DNA of 64,000 nt from an uncultured bacterium (GCA_964590465.1 CAZPYG010000008.1:15418-79417); one strand, 5' to 3'. Positions 1-5,476 are shown, counted from the first letter of the stretch. The notes: generated from the letters alone by a model not told the origin. Program-made: numbers and translations.

Positions 1-3000
1 CTGAACTCGACTGCCAGAGATTACAACTTGCTCTGGCGCATTAAAGTTGGAGGCACAAATATCTGGTAACCCGGCCAACCGTTGGGTGACGACCTCTCGC
101 GATGCGTTGATAGCTGCCATCGCCCCATCGTGATACTGGCAGGCTTTCAGCATCACCCTTCCCCGGGTTTCGGAAAGGCGAATAAACGACTCCCGAGATA
201 GCACCCCCGCCGCATGTAAAGCTGCATATTCTCCGTAGCTATGGCCCCCCACCATATCAGGGACCAACCCTACCCTGCGGGCCAGCGCCAGATATCCCAG
301 TTCAACGGCCCCCAGAGCCGGTTGCACCACGTGAGTATTGGTGAGTTCCGCCTCTACCCGTTCCGCTTCTGCTGCGGAATAAGGACTGGGAGGATAAATG
401 TACTGGCTTAGCCGTTTAGGGAAAACCCCATGTATCTGGCCATTGGCAAATTCCAATGCCTCGCGCATTTCACTGAAATAAAGGGCAACCTCCCTGGCCA
501 TATCCGGATATTGAGCCACTTGCCCCGGGAAGAGAAAGGCAACTTTGCCAGCCGGCTTTTCGGTTACAGTCGCGAGCTGAATGTGGGGTGGTAGGGGGTC
601 CTCTAAGGCAGGGTTACGGAGGTGTTTAAGGGCAATTGATAAACTGCTTGCAAGCTGTTCCAGGGAGGTGACCACCAGACTCAGTCCCACACCGATTGGG
701 CTTGATTGCCTTAGTCGCTTGGCGCAGGTAAAAGCTAGATCTCGCAGCCTTGGTTGGGCACCCTGGCTTAGCTGCTGGTGCAGGTCCTGAATGTCCTGAA
801 TGAGCCCTTCCCGGCTGGAGTCCCGCCACACCAGGAGCTCATAGGGCCAGGCTTCTGCCCCCACCACAGAGGGCCCGACATTGCCGCCATACTCTTCCAT
901 CACCAGGTGGAAATTGGTACCGCCAAATCCAAAGGCACTGACCCCGGCGCGACGAGGATGGTCCTTAGGCTGTAGCCAGGGTTGGGCCTCTTGCAGCAGA
1001 TACAACGGGCTATCTTCAGCCTTTAAAGTCTCTAGCGGGTTTTCCACGTTGGCATGGGGAGGCAAGGTTTTGTAATGCAGGGCTAGGGCGGCTTTCACCA
1101 TGGCGACCACCCCTGCGGTGGCCTTGGTATGGCCGATCATGGTTTTTACCGATCCCAAAACGCAGGACTTAGGCTCAGCCTGATGGGATTTCAAAACCCC
1201 GGTGATGGTTTCCAGTTCGGCCCGATCTCCGGCCACGGTGCCTGTGCCGTGGGCTTCATAGAGGCCCAAAGTATTAGGTGAGAAGCCTGCCTTGGCATAA
1301 GCCCTGGCTAAGGCCCGCTGTTGCCCCACGCTGGCAGGAGCCGTCATGCTCAAGCCCTTACCATCGCTGGAACTTGCGGTTGCCTTAATGACAGCGTAGA
1401 TTCGATCGCCGTCTCGCTCGGCATCGACTAGTCGCTTCAGCACCACCATGGCCAGCCCTTCGCTGATGACAATCCCATCCGCAGATTGGTCAAATGCTCG
1501 GGCTACTCCTTTGGGAGATAATGCCTGGGTCTTGCTGAAACAGAAAAAGGAAAAGGCTGACTGCACTGTGTCTAGACCACCGGCGACGGCCATATTGCAT
1601 CGACCACTCTCCAAGTCATTGACCGCAATGGTGAGAGCCGTTAAGGAAGAAGCACAGGCCGCATCCACAACAAAGTTCGAGCCTCCGAAATCGAATCGAT
1701 TGGCAATCCGACCCGCTGCGACATTCGGTAGAATTCCGGGAAACGATTCCTCTGTCCACTCTGGTAAACGGTCCCAAACCCTATCATCCGGGTTTTCTAC
1801 CATACGAGGCAGTTCTGCCCGGGTTGCGTATTGTTGCCCCAGGTCAGAGGAACCACCGCTAGAACCGATGACGACTGAGGTATTTTCCCGGTCAAAGTTA
1901 CCATTCTCATAGCCAGCATCTATCAAGGCCCGTCTTACCGCTTCTAGCGCCAGTAGCTGAGCGGGTTCAATGGACTTAATTGATTTTGGCGGAATGCCAA
2001 AACGAATGGGATCAAAAGGAACGTCATCCAGGAAGCCTCCCCACTTGGAGTAGACCTTATCTGGAGTACGCTGATTGGGGTCGTAGTAGAGTCTCCAGTC
2101 CCATCGTTCTCTGGGGATTTCGGAAATACCATTGACTTTCTGGAGAATATTTTCCCAGAACACAATAGGCGCATCGGCTTTGGGCAGCAGGGTACCAATG
2201 CCAACGATAGCAATATCCGATCCTCGGGAAGGGTTCACTGCCTGAGGTGATTCCGACTTCTGGGGAGACAGGTTCTGAAGCAGTTCGGTGCTGTACCCCG
2301 AAACCTCTTGGTGCAGTTCTTCAACGGTAATTACCTGATTTCGCAGGGTGGCCACCTGACCAATCATGTACATGCCGGTCGATAGCTGCTGGTTCGCTTC
2401 CACGGGATGAATCTCTGAACCCTGACGCACTAACCCCTTGGAGGCAATACGTAAGCGTCCCAAAGTCAGATCTTCCAGGGTATTCTTTATGTCTTCGGCT
2501 GAGCGCCCCTCCTGCATCATCCGCCGCCGCGTGGCATAAAATTCTTCTGCAAAGGGTGTCAAGGCGCACCGAGAAGCATGTCCCGGACCGGTTTCCAGGT
2601 TAATGGTTCGGGTGCAGGCCAGAGCCTGGCGCTGAAACTCAGGCATAATGGCACCACAGGCCACCGCTTCTTGGGTAAATAAATAGGCGGTACCCATCAA
2701 TACCCCAATTTTGATGCCACGCTCTGCCAGGGGAGCTGCCATAGCGTTAACCATCGACGCGGATCGGGCATCATGAATGCCCCCCGCAAAAAACACATGG
2801 ACTTCCGGAGCTACGGTTGGGGAAACTTCCTCCAGCAGCATCGTGATCATGCTTTCCCAGAGAACGAAGCTGCTTAAAGGTCCAACATGTCCTCCACATT
2901 CCCGGCCTTCAAAAATAAATCGCCGGGCACCCTGCTTCAGAAACATTTTCAGCAAGCTGGGGGTAGGTACATGCAGATAGGTAGCTATCCCCTCCTGCTC

Positions 3001-4305
3001 AAGCGTCTTCGCCTGATCTGGCCTGCCCCCGGCAATTAGGGCAAAAGGAGGCTTAACGGCCAGTACCGCCTTAAGTTGAGCTTCCCTTAAGGCCTGGGGT
3101 ACAAACCCCAAAATGCCCACGCCCCAAGGACGCTCACCCACCAGCTGCTGAGTCTTTGCCAGTAAAGTTTGCACCTGCTCACCCCGCATTAGGGCTAGGG
3201 CCACCCAGGGCAGCCCCCCGGCTCGGGAAACGGCATCAGCAAATTCAGCCGTGTCACTAACCCGGGTCATTGGTCCCTGGGAGATGGGATATCGGGTACC
3301 GTGAGACACGGCTAAAGGAGCGCCAGGCCCTAAGGGTCGGAGCCGCCGGGCGGTAATCAAATGGTCTTCACTAGCCTTGAGGATGGCCTGTATGTAGCGA
3401 CCCGTAGTCTGAAATTGCTCCCGAGCCGCTGCCGCTAAACCGATCGCTTGACCCATTGGCCATGCCGCTGTTCCCGGTTCTCCCCAACCCACTAAAGAGG
3501 CGACGGTTTCTTCCCAGGTAGCTTCAATTGCCTCCGTTGAGCTTAACTCGATGTCTCCAGCGGCGTTCTGCAGTTGAGCAATGGCCTTAAAACCAGGCCG
3601 AGACAACACCCGGACCGAGTCACCGAGACGCTCACCAATGGGTATGGCTTCTTGTCCATTCAGGTTATGAAGATAGGAACTCCAGTCGGTGGGCAAGGGG
3701 GACTCTGGCATCAGCCAAAGCTGGTCATCTAAAACTATTCCCGCGGCTCCTGCCCCTCGGCAAGCGGCTGCGGTATGCAGCCCGATCCCCCCTTGTACAT
3801 AGATGGGAAAAGGGCATCCGGCCTGAATTATTTTTTGACTTAAGATAAAAGCTGGGTCATTGCCTCCCCAGCCGCCGCATTCATGACCTCGGGCAACAAG
3901 ACCATCAATTTTGTCCGATATAACTCCAATGGTGGATAGTTGCTCAATATCTGTAATTTCTAAACAAAGCCGGCGTTCATCGACCTGAGGCAATGCATCA
4001 ATCAGGGTTGCCAGAGTCTCAGTTTGCCAGTGGCACAAAATTAACCAATGCGGTCGGGAACTCAGCCTCTGAAGTAGAGCGTGACTGGACTCAATTTGCA
4101 ATTCCCTAAGTCTTAGACCAATCAGTTGATCGGGACTCAAAAGGTTAAGAGCCGAATCTAAATTTTGGAGGGCCACATCAAGTTTGGCATCAGGACAAAA
4201 TTCCCGATCAAGAATACCAACCCCGCCAGCGCGACTGGTGGCAATGGCAAGCCCTGGATGTTCCAAATGGACTGGACTCAGCGATAGACAAGTAAATTCA
4301 CCCAT
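1..4305 (-). CDS. Type I polyketide synthase, N-terminal part (3' end runs off the window): two tandem FMN-dependent enoyl-reductase/nitronate-monooxygenase-like (PfaD/FabK-type) domains, then KS, then AT
   Basis: Absent from the ORF track because there is no stop inside the window. My reverse-strand translation from the ATG (complement of 4303-4305) stays open to base 1 (1435 codons). Motifs read: 'ATSRAGGVGIL', 'VARGHECGGWGG', then 'YPISQGPMTRVSD', 'IFEGRECGGHVGP', 'GVLMGTAYLFT'. KS motifs: 'VVDAACASSLTAL' (Cys codon 1654-1656), 'YEAHGTGT', 'KTMIGHTKATAG'. AT motif: 'GGHSYGEYAAL' (Ser codon 238-240). Confidence 0.9.
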   Translation of the reverse strand, partial: MGEFTCLSLSPVHLEHPGLAIATSRAGGVGILDREFCPDAKLDVALQNLDSALNLLSPDQLIGLRLRELQIESSHALLQRLSSRPHWLILCHWQTETLATLIDALPQVDERRLCLEITDIEQLSTIGVISDKIDGLVARGHECGGWGGNDPAFILSQKIIQAGCPFPIYVQGGIGLHTAAACRGAGAAGIVLDDQLWLMPESPLPTDWSSYLHNLNGQEAIPIGERLGDSVRVLSRPGFKAIAQLQNAAGDIELSSTEAIEATWEETVASLVGWGEPGTAAWPMGQAIGLAAAAREQFQTTGRYIQAILKASEDHLITARRLRPLGPGAPLAVSHGTRYPISQGPMTRVSDTAEFADAVSRAGGLPWVALALMRGEQVQTLLAKTQQLVGERPWGVGILGFVPQALREAQLKAVLAVKPPFALIAGGRPDQAKTLEQEGIATYLHVPTPSLLKMFLKQGARRFIFEGRECGGHVGPLSSFVLWESMITMLLEEVSPTVAPEVHVFFAGGIHDARSASMVNAMAAPLAERGIKIGVLMGTAYLFTQEAVACGAIMPEFQRQALACTRTINLETGPGHASRCALTPFAEEFYATRRRMMQEGRSAEDIKNTLEDLTLGRLRIASKGLVRQGSEIHPVEANQQLSTGMYMIGQVATLRNQVITVEELHQEVSGYSTELLQNLSPQKSESPQAVNPSRGSDIAIVGIGTLLPKADAPIVFWENILQKVNGISEIPRERWDWRLYYDPNQRTPDKVYSKWGGFLDDVPFDPIRFGIPPKSIKSIEPAQLLALEAVRRALIDAGYENGNFDRENTSVVIGSSGGSSDLGQQYATRAELPRMVENPDDRVWDRLPEWTEESFPGILPNVAAGRIANRFDFGGSNFVVDAACASSLTALTIAVNDLESGRCNMAVAGGLDTVQSAFSFFCFSKTQALSPKGVARAFDQSADGIVISEGLAMVVLKRLVDAERDGDRIYAVIKATASSSDGKGLSMTAPASVGQQRALARAYAKAGFSPNTLGLYEAHGTGTVAGDRAELETITGVLKSHQAEPKSCVLGSVKTMIGHTKATAGVVAMVKAALALHYKTLPPHANVENPLETLKAEDSPLYLLQEAQPWLQPKDHPRRAGVSAFGFGGTNFHLVMEEYGGNVGPSVVGAEAWPYELLVWRDSSREGLIQDIQDLHQQLSQGAQPRLRDLAFTCAKRLRQSSPIGVGLSLVVTSLEQLASSLSIALKHLRNPALEDPLPPHIQLATVTEKPAGKVAFLFPGQVAQYPDMAREVALYFSEMREALEFANGQIHGVFPKRLSQYIYPPSPYSAAEAERVEAELTNTHVVQPALGAVELGYLALARRVGLVPDMVGGHSYGEYAALHAAGVLSRESFIRLSETRGRVMLKACQYHDGAMAAINASREVVTQRLAGLPDICASNFNAPEQVVISGSRVQ

Positions 4306-5476
4306 AGTCCCGAATTGACGATACAATCATGCATTCTGGAGAGTCACAGGTCCCAAAAGAAGACTCTTAAGACCATAGGAAGGAGTAGACTCGATGTAAA
4401 CCCCTCACCTGACCCAAAAACCGTATTTCTAGGATTAGTGAATAATACCTTTGAACTCCAGTTTTTTGGGGCTATTGACGCAAACCTCCGTCGAACTTAC
4501 TCAGACTGAAAAGGATTTTATAATCGGACAGCGAATTTATCGCTATAGGTCAAAAAAAGACTTTTCCAATACTTTCAAGGATAATGAATCTCAAACCACC
4601 AATAAAACAGCAATAACCCCTAGATGAGCTTTAGTCCGCGAGCAGTGAACCATCTCTTCATGGTCATAAAGTTTTATGGACAGGTAAGAAGTTCAGAGTG
4701 AGTTGCCTGAACGGAAATCTCCGTCGAGGGCTTTATCTGTATGCCCAACAAGGCATCAATTAAGCACAGGTTACAACTATCTGACAATATCCGTAACAAT
4801 ATAGCAGAGCGATCCCGGATAACTATGTCATTTATCAGATGACTGCGAAAGGCTCTGACAGAAAATAATGACCGGGCATGGAACTCCACGGATAACCGAA
4901 TGATTAGGGAAAAAATCGGACTTTTCTGCCCCCGAGAAGCGCTTTCAGGGGTATGGTTGTCATCACTCCATCAGGGGCCGAGACAGCCTGATAAGTAGCA
5001 AGGTGAACATTTAAAGTATTCTTGGTGATCCTGACTCCTGCGGTCGCGGTAGACGCGGAAGGGAGAGGCAAAGTTTCTAAAATCCAAAGTCTTAACATTG
5101 CAGCCCTGAGGTAAACCTGGATGCTAATGTATCATTGAACTCCAGTCTGTACTGATCAGATTGATATCTTGTTGACCTCCTACGTCCTTTGCGAGTTAGC
5201 TAGTTAGAATTACTGGTCTCGAAATTTTCAAAACTGTATACTATGGTGCAGTTTCCTGTAGACATCTAAGCTCTAATCTGCTTTGATATGCTCAAATGTA
5301 AAGATTGTGTAGCTCTGTATCCCTTCAGACCGTCGAGATTTGAGTTTCATGGTGGCCGGTCGTTCACCGTAGACGTATTTTATTTTCTCTTGTTTCGTAT
5401 CCATAGGCAGGTGGCTAGGTCTAAGGTTCGTTTTCGGCTAGTTGAAAAGCCTCATTAAACTGGGAGTAAATTTTTG

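What the first reader, a model, noticed from the sequence alone, without database searches (positions are those of the whole stretch)
1..4305. PKS that opens with two FMN-type enoyl-reductase/nitronate-monooxygenase-like domains instead of a loading module
The reverse-strand frame from 4305 to 1 encodes about 690 aa before the KS. This stretch holds two tandem FabK/PfaD-like TIM-barrel domains ('VARGHECGGWGG', then 'IFEGRECGGHVGP...GVLMGTAYLFT'). No FAAL, ACP, GNAT or KSQ loading domain precedes the KS. The KS looks catalytically intact (DAACASS, EAHGTGT, IGHTKA). The usual textbook cis-AT type I PKS places an MDR-type ER after the KS-AT-DH, and PfaD-type ERs are normally free-standing or trans-acting. 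An ER-ER-KS-AT N-terminus next to a sulfotransferase-rich block is therefore unusual.
Basis: partly seen in the sequence, partly recalled or inferred. Interest (0 to 1): 0.6.

Follow-up and report, generated by a model that had tools for sequence, protein, structure and literature searches.

The report
Dead-plus-live enoyl reductase pair on lipid synthase
The gene is a real, widespread fatty-acid-like (PfaA-type) lipid synthase that starts with two FabK-type enoyl-reductase domains; the first has lost its catalytic and flavin-binding residues and probably serves as the built-in partner of the working second one, a detail that seems not to have been described.

Summary
One uninterrupted 2949-aa gene (start ATG at window 4305, minus strand) opens with two FabK-fold TIM-barrel domains, followed by an intact KS and AT. 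The rest lies left of the window: two ACPs, KR and DH.

- The protein is not a modular PKS that lost its loading module. It passes NCBI's PfaA cut-off (1103 vs 1010 bits), and this kind of iterative secondary-lipid synthase begins with KS.
- The architecture is not rare. All 80 genome loci examined, from cyanobacteria, Acidobacteriota, Verrucomicrobiota, Proteobacteria, Bacteroidota and Chloroflexota, show the same order. There are 452 clusters at 50% identity. Fused pfaD-pfaA genes are already in the literature, and this locus probably belongs with the published cyanobacterial 'hgl-like' islands.

What appears new is that domain 1 is a conserved pseudo-reductase. The catalytic His is Trp in 66 of 74 sequences, both FMN-contacting Met are Pro, and the phosphate-binding Gly-Thr is Asp-Asp. 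Domain 2 keeps every motif. The two fold as one rigid unit (pTM 0.90). I propose an intramolecular ERψ-ER pseudo-dimer, analogous to KS-CLF.

Downstream lie a second KS-AT, an ACP-like/CurM-type sulfotransferase and an α/β-hydrolase. These suggest sulfate-assisted off-loading of a sulfated lipid or terminal olefin. The product is unknown.

The parts
3331..4305 (-). ERψ: a FabK-fold TIM barrel plus lid (residues 1-325) that lacks the catalytic His and the FMN-binding motifs. The start codon is the ATG at 4303-4305.
   Evidence: The profile hits FabK 5gvj at E 2.8e-15. The AF2 model has pLDDT 93, and its best Foldseek match is FabK 2z6i, TM 0.76. Pfam gives no hit for the single sequence.
3868..3870 (-). 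Trp146 codon of ERψ, at the position of the catalytic His of FabK motif III (xEAGGH).
   Evidence: HMM alignment to tmFabK. The column reads W in 66 of 74 sequences and H in 1 of 74. The role of the His is taken from PMC13311796.
3721..3732 (-). LDDQ of ERψ, replacing the FMN-phosphate-binding 'MGT' loop.
   Evidence: Alignment. D193 is present in 70 of 74 and D194 in 71 of 74 sequences. The phosphate contacts G1836/T1837 of scERb are described in PMC13311796.
3298..3330 (-). Short conserved linker between ERψ and ER (residues 326-336).
   Evidence: P330, L331, S334, H335 and T337 are invariant or nearly so. The didomain model has pTM 0.90.
2290..3297 (-). ER: a FabK-type FMN enoyl-ACP reductase domain (residues 337-672) with all motifs intact: QGPM, ECGGH, AGGIHD, LMGT and MYMIGQ.
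   Evidence: Pfam NMO at 65 bits and TIGR03151 FabK at E 3e-30. PDB tmFabK is hit at E 1.5e-15. Foldseek gives TMt 0.82-0.84 to FabK. The motif residues are conserved in 73-74 of 74 sequences.
1042..2217 (-). KS domain with the Cys-His-His triad: DAACASS (1645-1665), EAHGTGT (1237-1257) and IGHTKA (1120-1137).
   Evidence: Pfam ketoacyl-synt and Ketoacyl-synt_C.
1..537 (-). N-terminal part of the AT domain (GHSYGE at 229-246). The gene continues left of the window through the rest of AT, two ACPs, KR and a PS-type DH, at L002 10873-15417.
   Evidence: Pfam scan of the full protein P0002. TIGR02813 PfaA scores 1103 bits, above its cut-off of 1010.

Best explanation
**What the gene is.** The gene encodes a 2949-aa iterative secondary-lipid synthase of the PfaA/HglE kind. 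Its domain order is ERψ-ER-KS-AT-ACP-ACP-KR-DH. It works with a second KS-AT protein encoded immediately downstream. No loading module is expected, because synthases of this kind start with KS.

**The two reductase-like domains.** The second N-terminal domain is a working FabK-type, FMN-dependent enoyl-ACP reductase fused in cis. It saturates the enoyl intermediates of the elongation cycles. The first domain (ERψ) is a paralogous FabK fold that cannot use a flavin in the canonical way:
- the catalytic His is Trp;
- the two FMN-contacting Met are Pro;
- the phosphate-binding Gly-Thr is Asp-Asp.

**Proposed role of ERψ (inferred).** FabK and PfaD act as homodimers, and the two thraustochytrid ER domains form a heterodimer in which one partner stabilises the other. 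I therefore infer that ERψ is the permanently tethered, catalytically dead dimer partner of ER. This would be an intramolecular pseudo-dimer, in the way CLF partners KS.

**Off-loading (inferred).** In this genome the chain is probably released through the adjacent ACP-like/CurM-type sulfotransferase and α/β-hydrolase. That would mean sulfonation of a β-hydroxyacyl thioester, followed by hydrolysis with or without decarboxylative elimination. Three further sulfotransferases would decorate the product.

**Shown versus inferred.** Shown here: folds, motifs, domain order, conservation and neighbourhood. Inferred: ERψ's lack of FMN, the pseudo-dimer, and the product.
For: - The frame is continuous and the start agrees with the homologues.
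- The full protein passes the PfaA cut-off.
- ERψ has the FabK fold.
- ER is FabK-type.
- Residue columns over 74 didomains from many phyla: ER keeps Met346 in 74 of 74, His473 in 74 of 74, the GG pair in 74 of 74, G-T/S in 74 of 74 and the lid Met in 73 of 74. ERψ has P11 in 72 of 74, W146 in 66 of 74 (H in 1 of 74), D193/D194 in 70-71 of 74 and P283 in 72 of 74.
- The meaning of these positions is taken from PMC13311796.
- The tmFabK M276A mutant is reported to lose FMN, and ERψ has Pro at that position.
- The didomain model has pTM 0.90 and pLDDT 88 over 694 residues, with a short conserved linker.
- ERψ evolves faster than ER (47% against 65% mean pairwise identity) but is always present: 80 of 80 loci show ERψ-ER-KS-AT-ACPn-KR, mostly followed by DH and a second KS-AT.
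- Dimer precedents come from PMC13311796.
- For off-loading: the ST matches CurM ST at E 9e-60 and OLS ST at 1.3e-53. Its N-terminus is ACP-like. The hydrolase is collinear with the OLS TE at E 1e-11. In the 41 genomes searched, 12 hold a full-length or near-full-length homologue of the ACP-ST, and 11 of these lie next to the synthase, including Verrucomicrobiota.
Against: - No coordinates of the didomain model were available. I could not test whether the two domains are related by the pseudo-two-fold axis of the FabK dimer. The pTM only says that the pair is rigid.
- ERψ keeps invariant charged residues at the C-terminal ends of its barrel strands (D33, R65, E116, E142, D193, D194). That looks more like a ligand or catalytic pocket than an inert scaffold.
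- Loss of FMN binding is inferred from motifs and has not been measured.
- The ACP call for the N-terminus of the ST is weak (Pfam E 0.043).
- The hydrolase is only 23% identical to the OLS TE.
- No product is known for any member of this family.
Confidence: 0.62

Rival explanations
1. ERψ is not a dead scaffold. It is a neofunctionalised TIM-barrel domain with its own ligand or chemistry. Examples would be a metal- or substrate-binding pocket that gates which cycles are enoyl-reduced, docks the ACPs, or isomerises or hydrates intermediates.
For: Polar residues at the barrel's catalytic face are invariant or nearly so: D33, R65, E116, E142, Q157, D193 and D194. The replacement residues themselves are conserved across phyla (W146, P11, P283). 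FabX, a dehydrogenase/isomerase with the same fold, is among the structural matches at TM 0.66.
Against: No known motif of another TIM-barrel enzyme family was detected. ERψ diverges faster than ER. Buried salt-bridge networks also stabilise cofactor-less pseudoenzymes. The DH, KR and ER functions are already supplied by other domains.
Confidence: 0.22
2. Both domains are active enoyl reductases with different cycle or chain-length specificities. This has been proposed from genetics for the two thraustochytrid ER domains.
For: Both have the complete FabK fold including the lid. Motif III is partly kept in ERψ as E-x-G-G, and the GG loop is retained.
Against: The catalytic His is absent from ERψ in 73 of 74 sequences. 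Both FMN-contacting Met are Pro. The phosphate-binding G-T is replaced by two acidic residues that would repel the FMN phosphate (with residue roles).
Confidence: 0.05
3. One reading: this is a cis-AT modular PKS in which ER/NMO-like domains replace the loading module and take part in starter-unit selection or processing.
For: No FAAL, GNAT, KSQ or ACP precedes the KS.
Against: The protein is a PfaA-subfamily member above the curated cut-off. It has tandem ACPs and a single KS-AT-KR-DH set, typical of iterative secondary-lipid synthases. PfaA is described as beginning with KS (PMC13291983). There is no carrier domain before the KS to hold a starter.
Confidence: 0.04
4. The fusion is an artefact. 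A stand-alone ER gene and a PKS gene would have been joined by an assembly or frameshift error, or the true start would lie downstream.
For: None was found. The only hint of fragility is that one relative (G070) has ERψ split over two frames.
Against: The frame is uninterrupted. More than 100 full-coverage homologues share the same N-terminus. All 80 loci have the same order, and there are 452 representative clusters.
Confidence: 0.01

Closest known systems
Fused pfaD-pfaA ('pfaDA') secondary-lipid synthases, cyanobacterial 'hgl-like' islands (HglE2-type), and Shulse & Allen types G and O
   Same: The synthase is PfaA-like (KS-AT-ACPn-KR-DH) with an ER fused at its N-terminus, and a second KS-AT gene follows. 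An HlyD-type exporter lies nearby. The product is unknown (PMC13291983, PMC11804610, PMC3098273). Fischerella, Microcystis and Gloeobacter homologues are 60-66% identical over the N-terminal 700 residues.
   Different: These papers describe one ER (a pfaD or hglA homologue). None mentions a second, degenerate ER-like domain. Here KR-DH is fused into the same polypeptide, and a CurM-type ST and a hydrolase follow. That this locus is an 'hgl-like' island in the sense of PMC11804610 is my inference from gene content. I did not check it against their data.
Thraustochytrid PUFA synthase ERb/ERc heterodimer (PMC13311796)
   Same: One synthase carries two TIM-barrel ER-type domains that pair with each other. 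One partner depends on the other for folding, and ER domains are fused in cis to PUFA-synthase subunits.
   Different: ERb and ERc sit on two different polypeptides. Both keep the catalytic His and bind FMN, and both are PfaD-type with an N-terminal subdomain of about 80 aa. Here the two domains are in tandem on one chain, are FabK-type, and the first has lost the His and the FMN motifs.
KS-CLF pairs of type II PKS and PfaC
   Same: The logic is the same: a catalytically dead paralogue is kept as the obligatory dimer partner of the active domain, and in PUFA synthases the two are fused in one chain.
   Different: The fold and chemistry are different. For ERψ-ER the pairing is predicted, not shown.
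FabK (enoyl-ACP reductase II, FMN-dependent; PDB 2z6i, 5gvh, 7l00)
   Same: FabK is the best sequence and structure match for both domains. Domain 2 keeps motifs I and III, the phosphate loops and the lid Met.
   Different: FabK is a free-standing homodimer of type II FAS. Domain 2 scores far below the FabK equivalog cut-off (about 100 bits against 453). Domain 1 lacks the catalytic residues.
CurM / olefin synthase (OLS) ACP-ST-TE off-loading module (PDB 4gbm, 4gox)
   Same: The downstream ST is about 45% identical to CurM ST over roughly 300 residues (E 9e-60). It is preceded by an ACP-like segment and followed by an Abhydrolase_1-type hydrolase collinear with the OLS TE.
   Different: The components are separate proteins acting with an iterative PfaA-type synthase, not the last module of a modular PKS. 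The hydrolase is only distantly related to the OLS TE. Three more sulfotransferases and several sulfatases are present, so sulfate may be retained rather than eliminated.

Membership tests
PfaA-subfamily iterative secondary-lipid (PUFA-synthase-like) synthase | Score above the curated cut-off of NCBIfam TIGR02813 (omega_3_PfaA) | tested here: met
   1103.2 bits against a cut-off of 1010.1 for the full protein.
PfaA-subfamily iterative secondary-lipid (PUFA-synthase-like) synthase | Domain order KS-AT-tandem ACPs-KR-DH, with a partner KS/AT protein encoded next to it | tested here: met
   Pfam scan of P0002 and P0003. The same order occurs in 80 of 80 related loci.
PfaA-subfamily iterative secondary-lipid (PUFA-synthase-like) synthase | FabA-type DH/isomerase domains and a CLF (the PfaC functions needed for cis-polyenes) | tested here: not met
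   No FabA-type DH or CLF was found within L002 or window 1-31200. P0003 is an active KS (Cys-His-His) plus AT. The product is therefore unlikely to be a PUFA, and the system resembles Hgl-type synthases more closely.
FabK / NMO-type FMN enoyl-ACP reductase (domain 2, residues 337-672) | Pfam NMO above the gathering score, and a FabK-like fold | tested here: met
   65.4 bits against 28. Foldseek TMt 0.82-0.84 to FabK.
FabK / NMO-type FMN enoyl-ACP reductase (domain 2, residues 337-672) | Motif I Met, motif III catalytic His, the GG and G-T FMN-phosphate loops, and the lid Met | tested here: met
   QGPM, ECGGH, AGGIHD, LMGT and MYMIGQ are present, each in 73-74 of 74 homologues.
FabK / NMO-type FMN enoyl-ACP reductase (domain 2, residues 337-672) | FMN binding and NAD(P)H-dependent enoyl-ACP reduction | not testable with these tools
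   Requires biochemistry.
FabK / NMO-type FMN enoyl-ACP reductase (domain 1, ERψ, residues 1-325) | FabK-like TIM-barrel plus lid fold | tested here: met
   AF2 pLDDT 93. Foldseek best match is FabK 2z6i at E 2e-15, TM 0.76-0.78. The profile hits 5gvj at E 2.8e-15.
FabK / NMO-type FMN enoyl-ACP reductase (domain 1, ERψ, residues 1-325) | Catalytic His of motif III | tested here: not met
   Trp146. The column reads W in 66 of 74 and H in 1 of 74.
FabK / NMO-type FMN enoyl-ACP reductase (domain 1, ERψ, residues 1-325) | FMN-contacting residues: motif I Met, the G-T phosphate loop and the lid Met276 of tmFabK | tested here: not met
   P11 (register inferred by ungapped extension), D193-D194 and P283 occupy these positions, each in 70-72 of 74 sequences.
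PfaD family (trans-acting ER of PUFA synthases) | Sequence or structure closest to PfaD | tested here: not met
   No PfaD chain is hit by sequence at E<=0.001 (domain 2) or E<=10 (domain 1 profile). No PfaD model appears among the NCBIfam hits at 1e-5. Foldseek TMt to PfaD is 0.36-0.45, against 0.71-0.84 to FabK.
Modular cis-AT type I PKS with a loading module | A loading didomain or tridomain (FAAL/GNAT/KSQ/AT-ACP) before the first KS | tested here: not met
   Residues 1-696 are fully occupied by the two FabK-fold domains.
CurM/OLS-type sulfotransferase-thioesterase off-loading | An activating ST homologous to CurM ST | tested here: met
   P0124 residues 133-434 match 4gbm at E 9e-60 and 4gox at E 1.3e-53.
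CurM/OLS-type sulfotransferase-thioesterase off-loading | A carrier domain directly upstream of the ST | tested here: inconclusive
   The N-terminal 100 residues match Pfam PP-binding at E 0.043. All 11 weak PDB hits are carrier proteins. A Ser is present in DFASID.
CurM/OLS-type sulfotransferase-thioesterase off-loading | A TE of the CurM/OLS type that performs decarboxylative sulfate elimination | tested here: inconclusive
   P0125 belongs to the same Pfam families as the OLS TE (Abhydrolase_1 and Abhydrolase_6). It aligns end to end with the OLS TE at 23% identity, E 1e-11. CurM TE is not among the best 60 PDB hits.

The most novel reading that the evidence does not exclude
ERψ-ER is an obligate intramolecular heterodimer found in hundreds of bacterial secondary-lipid synthases. 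ERψ is more than ballast: its conserved charged pocket (D33, R65, E116, E142, W146, D193, D194) binds the acyl-ACP or another ligand and programmes which elongation cycles are enoyl-reduced. That would fix the positions of the hydroxyl or alkene groups that the cluster's sulfotransferases later use. This would be a new regulatory pseudoenzyme class in megasynthases. It would also give the first handle on how iterative Pfa/Hgl-type synthases count cycles.
Probability: 0.15. Interest if true: 0.75.

Novelty: new variant of a known kind. Interest (0 to 1): 0.5.

Why it matters
How iterative Pfa/Hgl-type synthases are assembled, and how they decide which cycles are fully reduced, is an open question. 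[quoted passage not shown]

This analysis shows that a large bacterial family carries a tandem pair in one chain, with one copy systematically inactivated. The family has 452 clusters at 50% identity and spans several phyla. It offers a natural, single-polypeptide system for testing whether ER dimerisation is structural rather than catalytic. It also improves annotation, because Pfam leaves the first 330 residues blank.

The link to a trans-acting CurM-type sulfotransferase points to an uncharacterised class of sulfated lipids or terminal olefins in cyanobacteria and Verrucomicrobiota.

Tried and rejected
- A Pfam scan of domain 1 alone gave only a chance-level TMP-TENI hit. Only a family profile and a structure model revealed the fold.
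- A direct BLASTP of domain 1 against domain 2 was marginal (E 0.017). hhalign gave 146 collinear columns but only 20% probability. The two domains are therefore homologous at the fold level, and a recent duplication is not supported.
- I looked for model coordinates in the Python box to measure the inter-domain symmetry. None are provided.
- Literature searches for PfaD + cyanobacteria + sulfotransferase, and for PUFA synthase + sulfotransferase, found nothing relevant.
- I considered FabX-like dehydrogenase/isomerase chemistry for ERψ. I did not pursue it, because no conserved Fe-S-type Cys set is evident: C6 and C37 vary, and only C182 is near-invariant.
- I considered the cluster as a PUFA producer and rejected it, because no FabA-type DH/I or CLF is present.
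- A hit to an ST inside a 2913-aa Hormoscilla ORF (L083) was cut by the fetched region. It gave no hit to P0125 and so no TE comparison. The Waterburya OLS (L087) was used instead.

Full report
**1. What is in the sequence**

The minus strand of window 1-4326 is one open frame that runs off the left edge. The window is G000:C8:15418-79417. After fetching the 15.4 kb to the left (L002), the frame closes as a 2956-aa ORF at L002 10873-19743.

The public protein collection calls the gene from the ATG at window 4305, giving 2949 aa (P0004). The N-termini of more than 100 homologues align there, MGEFTC against MxxFxC.

**2. Domain content**

Pfam on the full protein gives this layout (numbering from the upstream in-frame TTG, 7 more than from the ATG at 4305, which is the numbering used elsewhere in this report):

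| Residues | Domain |
|---|---|
| 342-671 | NMO (FabK family) |
| 704-1095 | KS |
| 1264-1557 | AT |
| about 1990-2200 | two PP-binding domains |
| 2354-2583 | KR |
| 2666-2939 | PS-type DH |

The KS has the Cys-His-His triad. The whole protein scores 1103 bits against NCBIfam TIGR02813 (PfaA), above the curated cut-off of 1010. This makes it an iterative PUFA-synthase-like, or 'secondary-lipid', synthase and not a modular assembly line. PfaA-type proteins begin with KS (PMC13291983). The absence of a loading module is therefore the rule and not an anomaly.

**3. The first 325 residues**

As a single sequence they hit nothing in Pfam. They resemble domain 2 only marginally. Three further results settle the fold:
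- A profile of 23 homologues (A1) hits Thermotoga FabK at E 2.8e-15, and also other FabK and NMO chains.
- An AlphaFold2 model has pLDDT 93 and pTM 0.92.
- Its best structural matches are FabK from S. pneumoniae, F. nucleatum, C. difficile and T. maritima, with TM 0.68-0.78.

Both domains are FabK-type rather than PfaD-type. PfaD chains are not found by sequence, and they superpose poorly, with TMt 0.36-0.45.

**4. The first domain is a conserved pseudo-reductase**

I used the residue roles given for FabK, PfaD and the thraustochytrid ERs in PMC13311796 together with the HMM alignments to tmFabK.

Domain 2 keeps every functional element:
- motif I Met (QGPM);
- the catalytic His of motif III (ECGGH);
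- the GG and G-T loops that hold the FMN phosphate (AGGIHD, LMGT);
- the lid Met equivalent to tmFabK M276 (MYMIGQ).

Domain 1 has a different residue at each of these positions:

| FabK element | Residue in domain 1 | Frequency in 74 didomains |
|---|---|---|
| motif I Met | Pro11 | 72 of 74 |
| catalytic His | Trp146 | 66 of 74 (His in 1) |
| phosphate-loop G-T | Asp193-Asp194 | 70-71 of 74 |
| lid Met276 | Pro283 | 72 of 74 |

The 74 didomains were taken from genome loci of several phyla. In the same set, the domain 2 residues are present in 73-74 of 74. The register for Pro11 is inferred by ungapped extension of the alignment.

Domain 1 diverges faster than domain 2, at 47% against 65% mean pairwise identity. 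It is nevertheless never missing. I call it ERψ.

**5. The pair**

A model of residues 1-694 built on 20 sequences has pTM 0.90 and pLDDT 88. That is hard to obtain unless the relative position of the two domains is well defined. The 11-residue linker is nearly invariant.

FabK and PfaD are homodimers. The two ER domains of Schizochytrium form a heterodimer in which ERb needs ERc to fold and to bind FMN. The same paper invokes intramolecular KS-CLF and DH-DH pairs (PMC13311796).

The most economical reading is that ERψ is the tethered, inactive dimer partner of ER. I could not test the geometry because model coordinates are not exposed.

One caveat remains. ERψ retains invariant charged residues at the catalytic face of the barrel: D33, R65, E116, E142, D193 and D194. 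These could be a stabilising salt-bridge network or a new ligand site. I carry the second possibility as the main rival.

**6. How common it is**

- The N-terminal 700 residues have more than 100 full-coverage homologues at 53-66% identity. They include Fischerella, Westiellopsis, Microcystis, Gloeobacter, Chroococcus, Rhabdochromatium and Terriglobia.
- A scan of one genome per species found 103 loci, of which 80 were kept. Every one shows the invariant core order ERψ, ER, KS, AT, ACPs, KR, mostly followed by DH and then a second KS-AT. The phyla are Cyanobacteriota, Acidobacteriota, Verrucomicrobiota, Gamma- and Zetaproteobacteria, Bacteroidota, Chloroflexota and Thermodesulfobacteriota.
- In a library of 1.84 billion representatives at 50% identity, the ERψ profile finds 452 proteins at E<=1e-30. 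The match almost always begins at residue 1 of a protein of 2000-3100 aa.
- Within the window's own family the gene is absent from all 18 other genera sampled. It is found in only 1 of 30 relatives. It is therefore an accessory, patchily distributed cluster.

**7. What is already published**

- Shulse & Allen's uncharacterised secondary-lipid types G (Anabaena, Nostoc, Microcystis) and O (Gloeobacter and others) (PMC3098273).
- The compact 'hgl-like' islands, with seven hgl homologues in five ORFs and an unknown product that is not a heterocyte glycolipid (PMC11804610).
- 'Fused pfaD and pfaA homologues' in Ottowia, Aquimarina, Flavobacterium and Renibacterium (PMC13291983).

An N-terminal ER on a PfaA-like synthase is thus known. 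None of these texts mentions a second, degenerate ER-like domain. [quoted passage not shown] Within the library I could search, ERψ is undescribed.

**8. Neighbourhood**

The following genes lie downstream on the same strand:
- P0003, an active KS plus AT of 1158 aa, again PfaA-like.
- P0124, of 435 aa. Residues 133-434 match CurM ST (4gbm) at E 9e-60 and OLS ST at 1.3e-53. The first 100 residues look like a carrier protein: Pfam PP-binding at E 0.043, all 11 weak PDB hits are ACPs, and a Ser sits in DFASID.
- P0125, an Abhydrolase_1/6 protein. It aligns end to end with the TE of a canonical olefin synthase (FAAL-ACP-KS-AT-KR-ACP-ST-TE, L087) at 23% identity, E 1e-11.

Full-length or near-full-length homologues of the ACP-ST occur in 12 of the 41 genomes searched, and in 11 of these they lie next to the synthase. 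One is a Verrucomicrobiae MAG in which the order KS-AT, ACP-ST, hydrolase and three Sulfotransfer_3 genes is conserved.

Upstream in the window are a TPR protein, an HlyD-type exporter, three Sulfotransfer_3 paralogues, a Rieske oxygenase and sulfatases. I treat that note as a lead that agrees with my results, not as independent support.

The synthase has KR, a PKS-type DH and ER but no FabA-type DH/I or CLF. The likely product is therefore a long, mostly saturated chain with some retained hydroxyls, like the Hgl aglycones. Off-loading would go through β-sulfonation, with or without decarboxylative elimination, and further O-sulfation would follow. This part is inference.

**9. Verdict**

The architecture is ordinary for a large and largely uncharacterised family. 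The genuinely new points are two:
- the systematic inactivation of the first ER-like domain, with its probable role as a built-in dimer partner;
- the trans-acting CurM-type ACP-ST plus hydrolase coupled to a PfaA-type synthase.

Interest is moderate.

Noticed in passing
G000:C450 (L086 1284-2579, + strand): The same assembly holds a second ERψ-ER N-terminus, 48% identical to the window's, on a 2.6-kb contig that ends inside the gene. It is either a paralogous second cluster or DNA from a contaminating strain (the assembly is rated at 4.6% contamination).
   Followed up: partly
L002 5831-7138 (- strand; left of the window): The CurM-type sulfotransferase carries an ACP-like N-terminal domain of about 100 aa (DFASID). 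Of the 41 genomes searched, 12 hold a full-length or near-full-length homologue, and 11 of these lie next to this kind of synthase, including Verrucomicrobiota and a Zetaproteobacterium.
   Followed up: partly
L084 (G030:C40:17000-30000, Verrucomicrobiae MAG): Almost the whole accessory gene set of the window is conserved next to the synthase in a different phylum: KS-AT, ACP-ST, hydrolase, a PPC-domain protein, the unnamed 454/508-aa proteins and three Sulfotransfer_3 genes. This points to a mobile, self-contained cluster.
   Followed up: partly
window 3331-4305 (ERψ residues D33, R65, E116, E142, D193, D194): An invariant charged cluster sits at the C-terminal ends of the barrel strands of the 'dead' domain. 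It is unexplained: either a salt-bridge filling of the empty flavin pocket or a new ligand site.
   Followed up: no
G070:C72:54286-55264 (a same-class relative): In the only relative among 30 that has the gene, ERψ is split between two reading frames (a 219-aa ORF and a 2738-aa ORF). This is a frameshift or a sequencing error.
   Followed up: no
window 2887-2916 and 2575-2592 (residues 468-477 and 572-577 of the didomain model): The catalytic ECGGHVGP loop and the GPGHAS loop of the active ER are the only internal segments with pLDDT below 50 in the didomain model. These are probably cofactor- or substrate-ordered loops.
   Followed up: no
L002 7326-10802 (P0003 residues about 950-1158): The second KS-AT protein ends in a low-complexity tail of about 200 residues, rich in Ser, Pro, Gln and Ala, with no detectable domain. 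It may be a docking or linker region.
   Followed up: no
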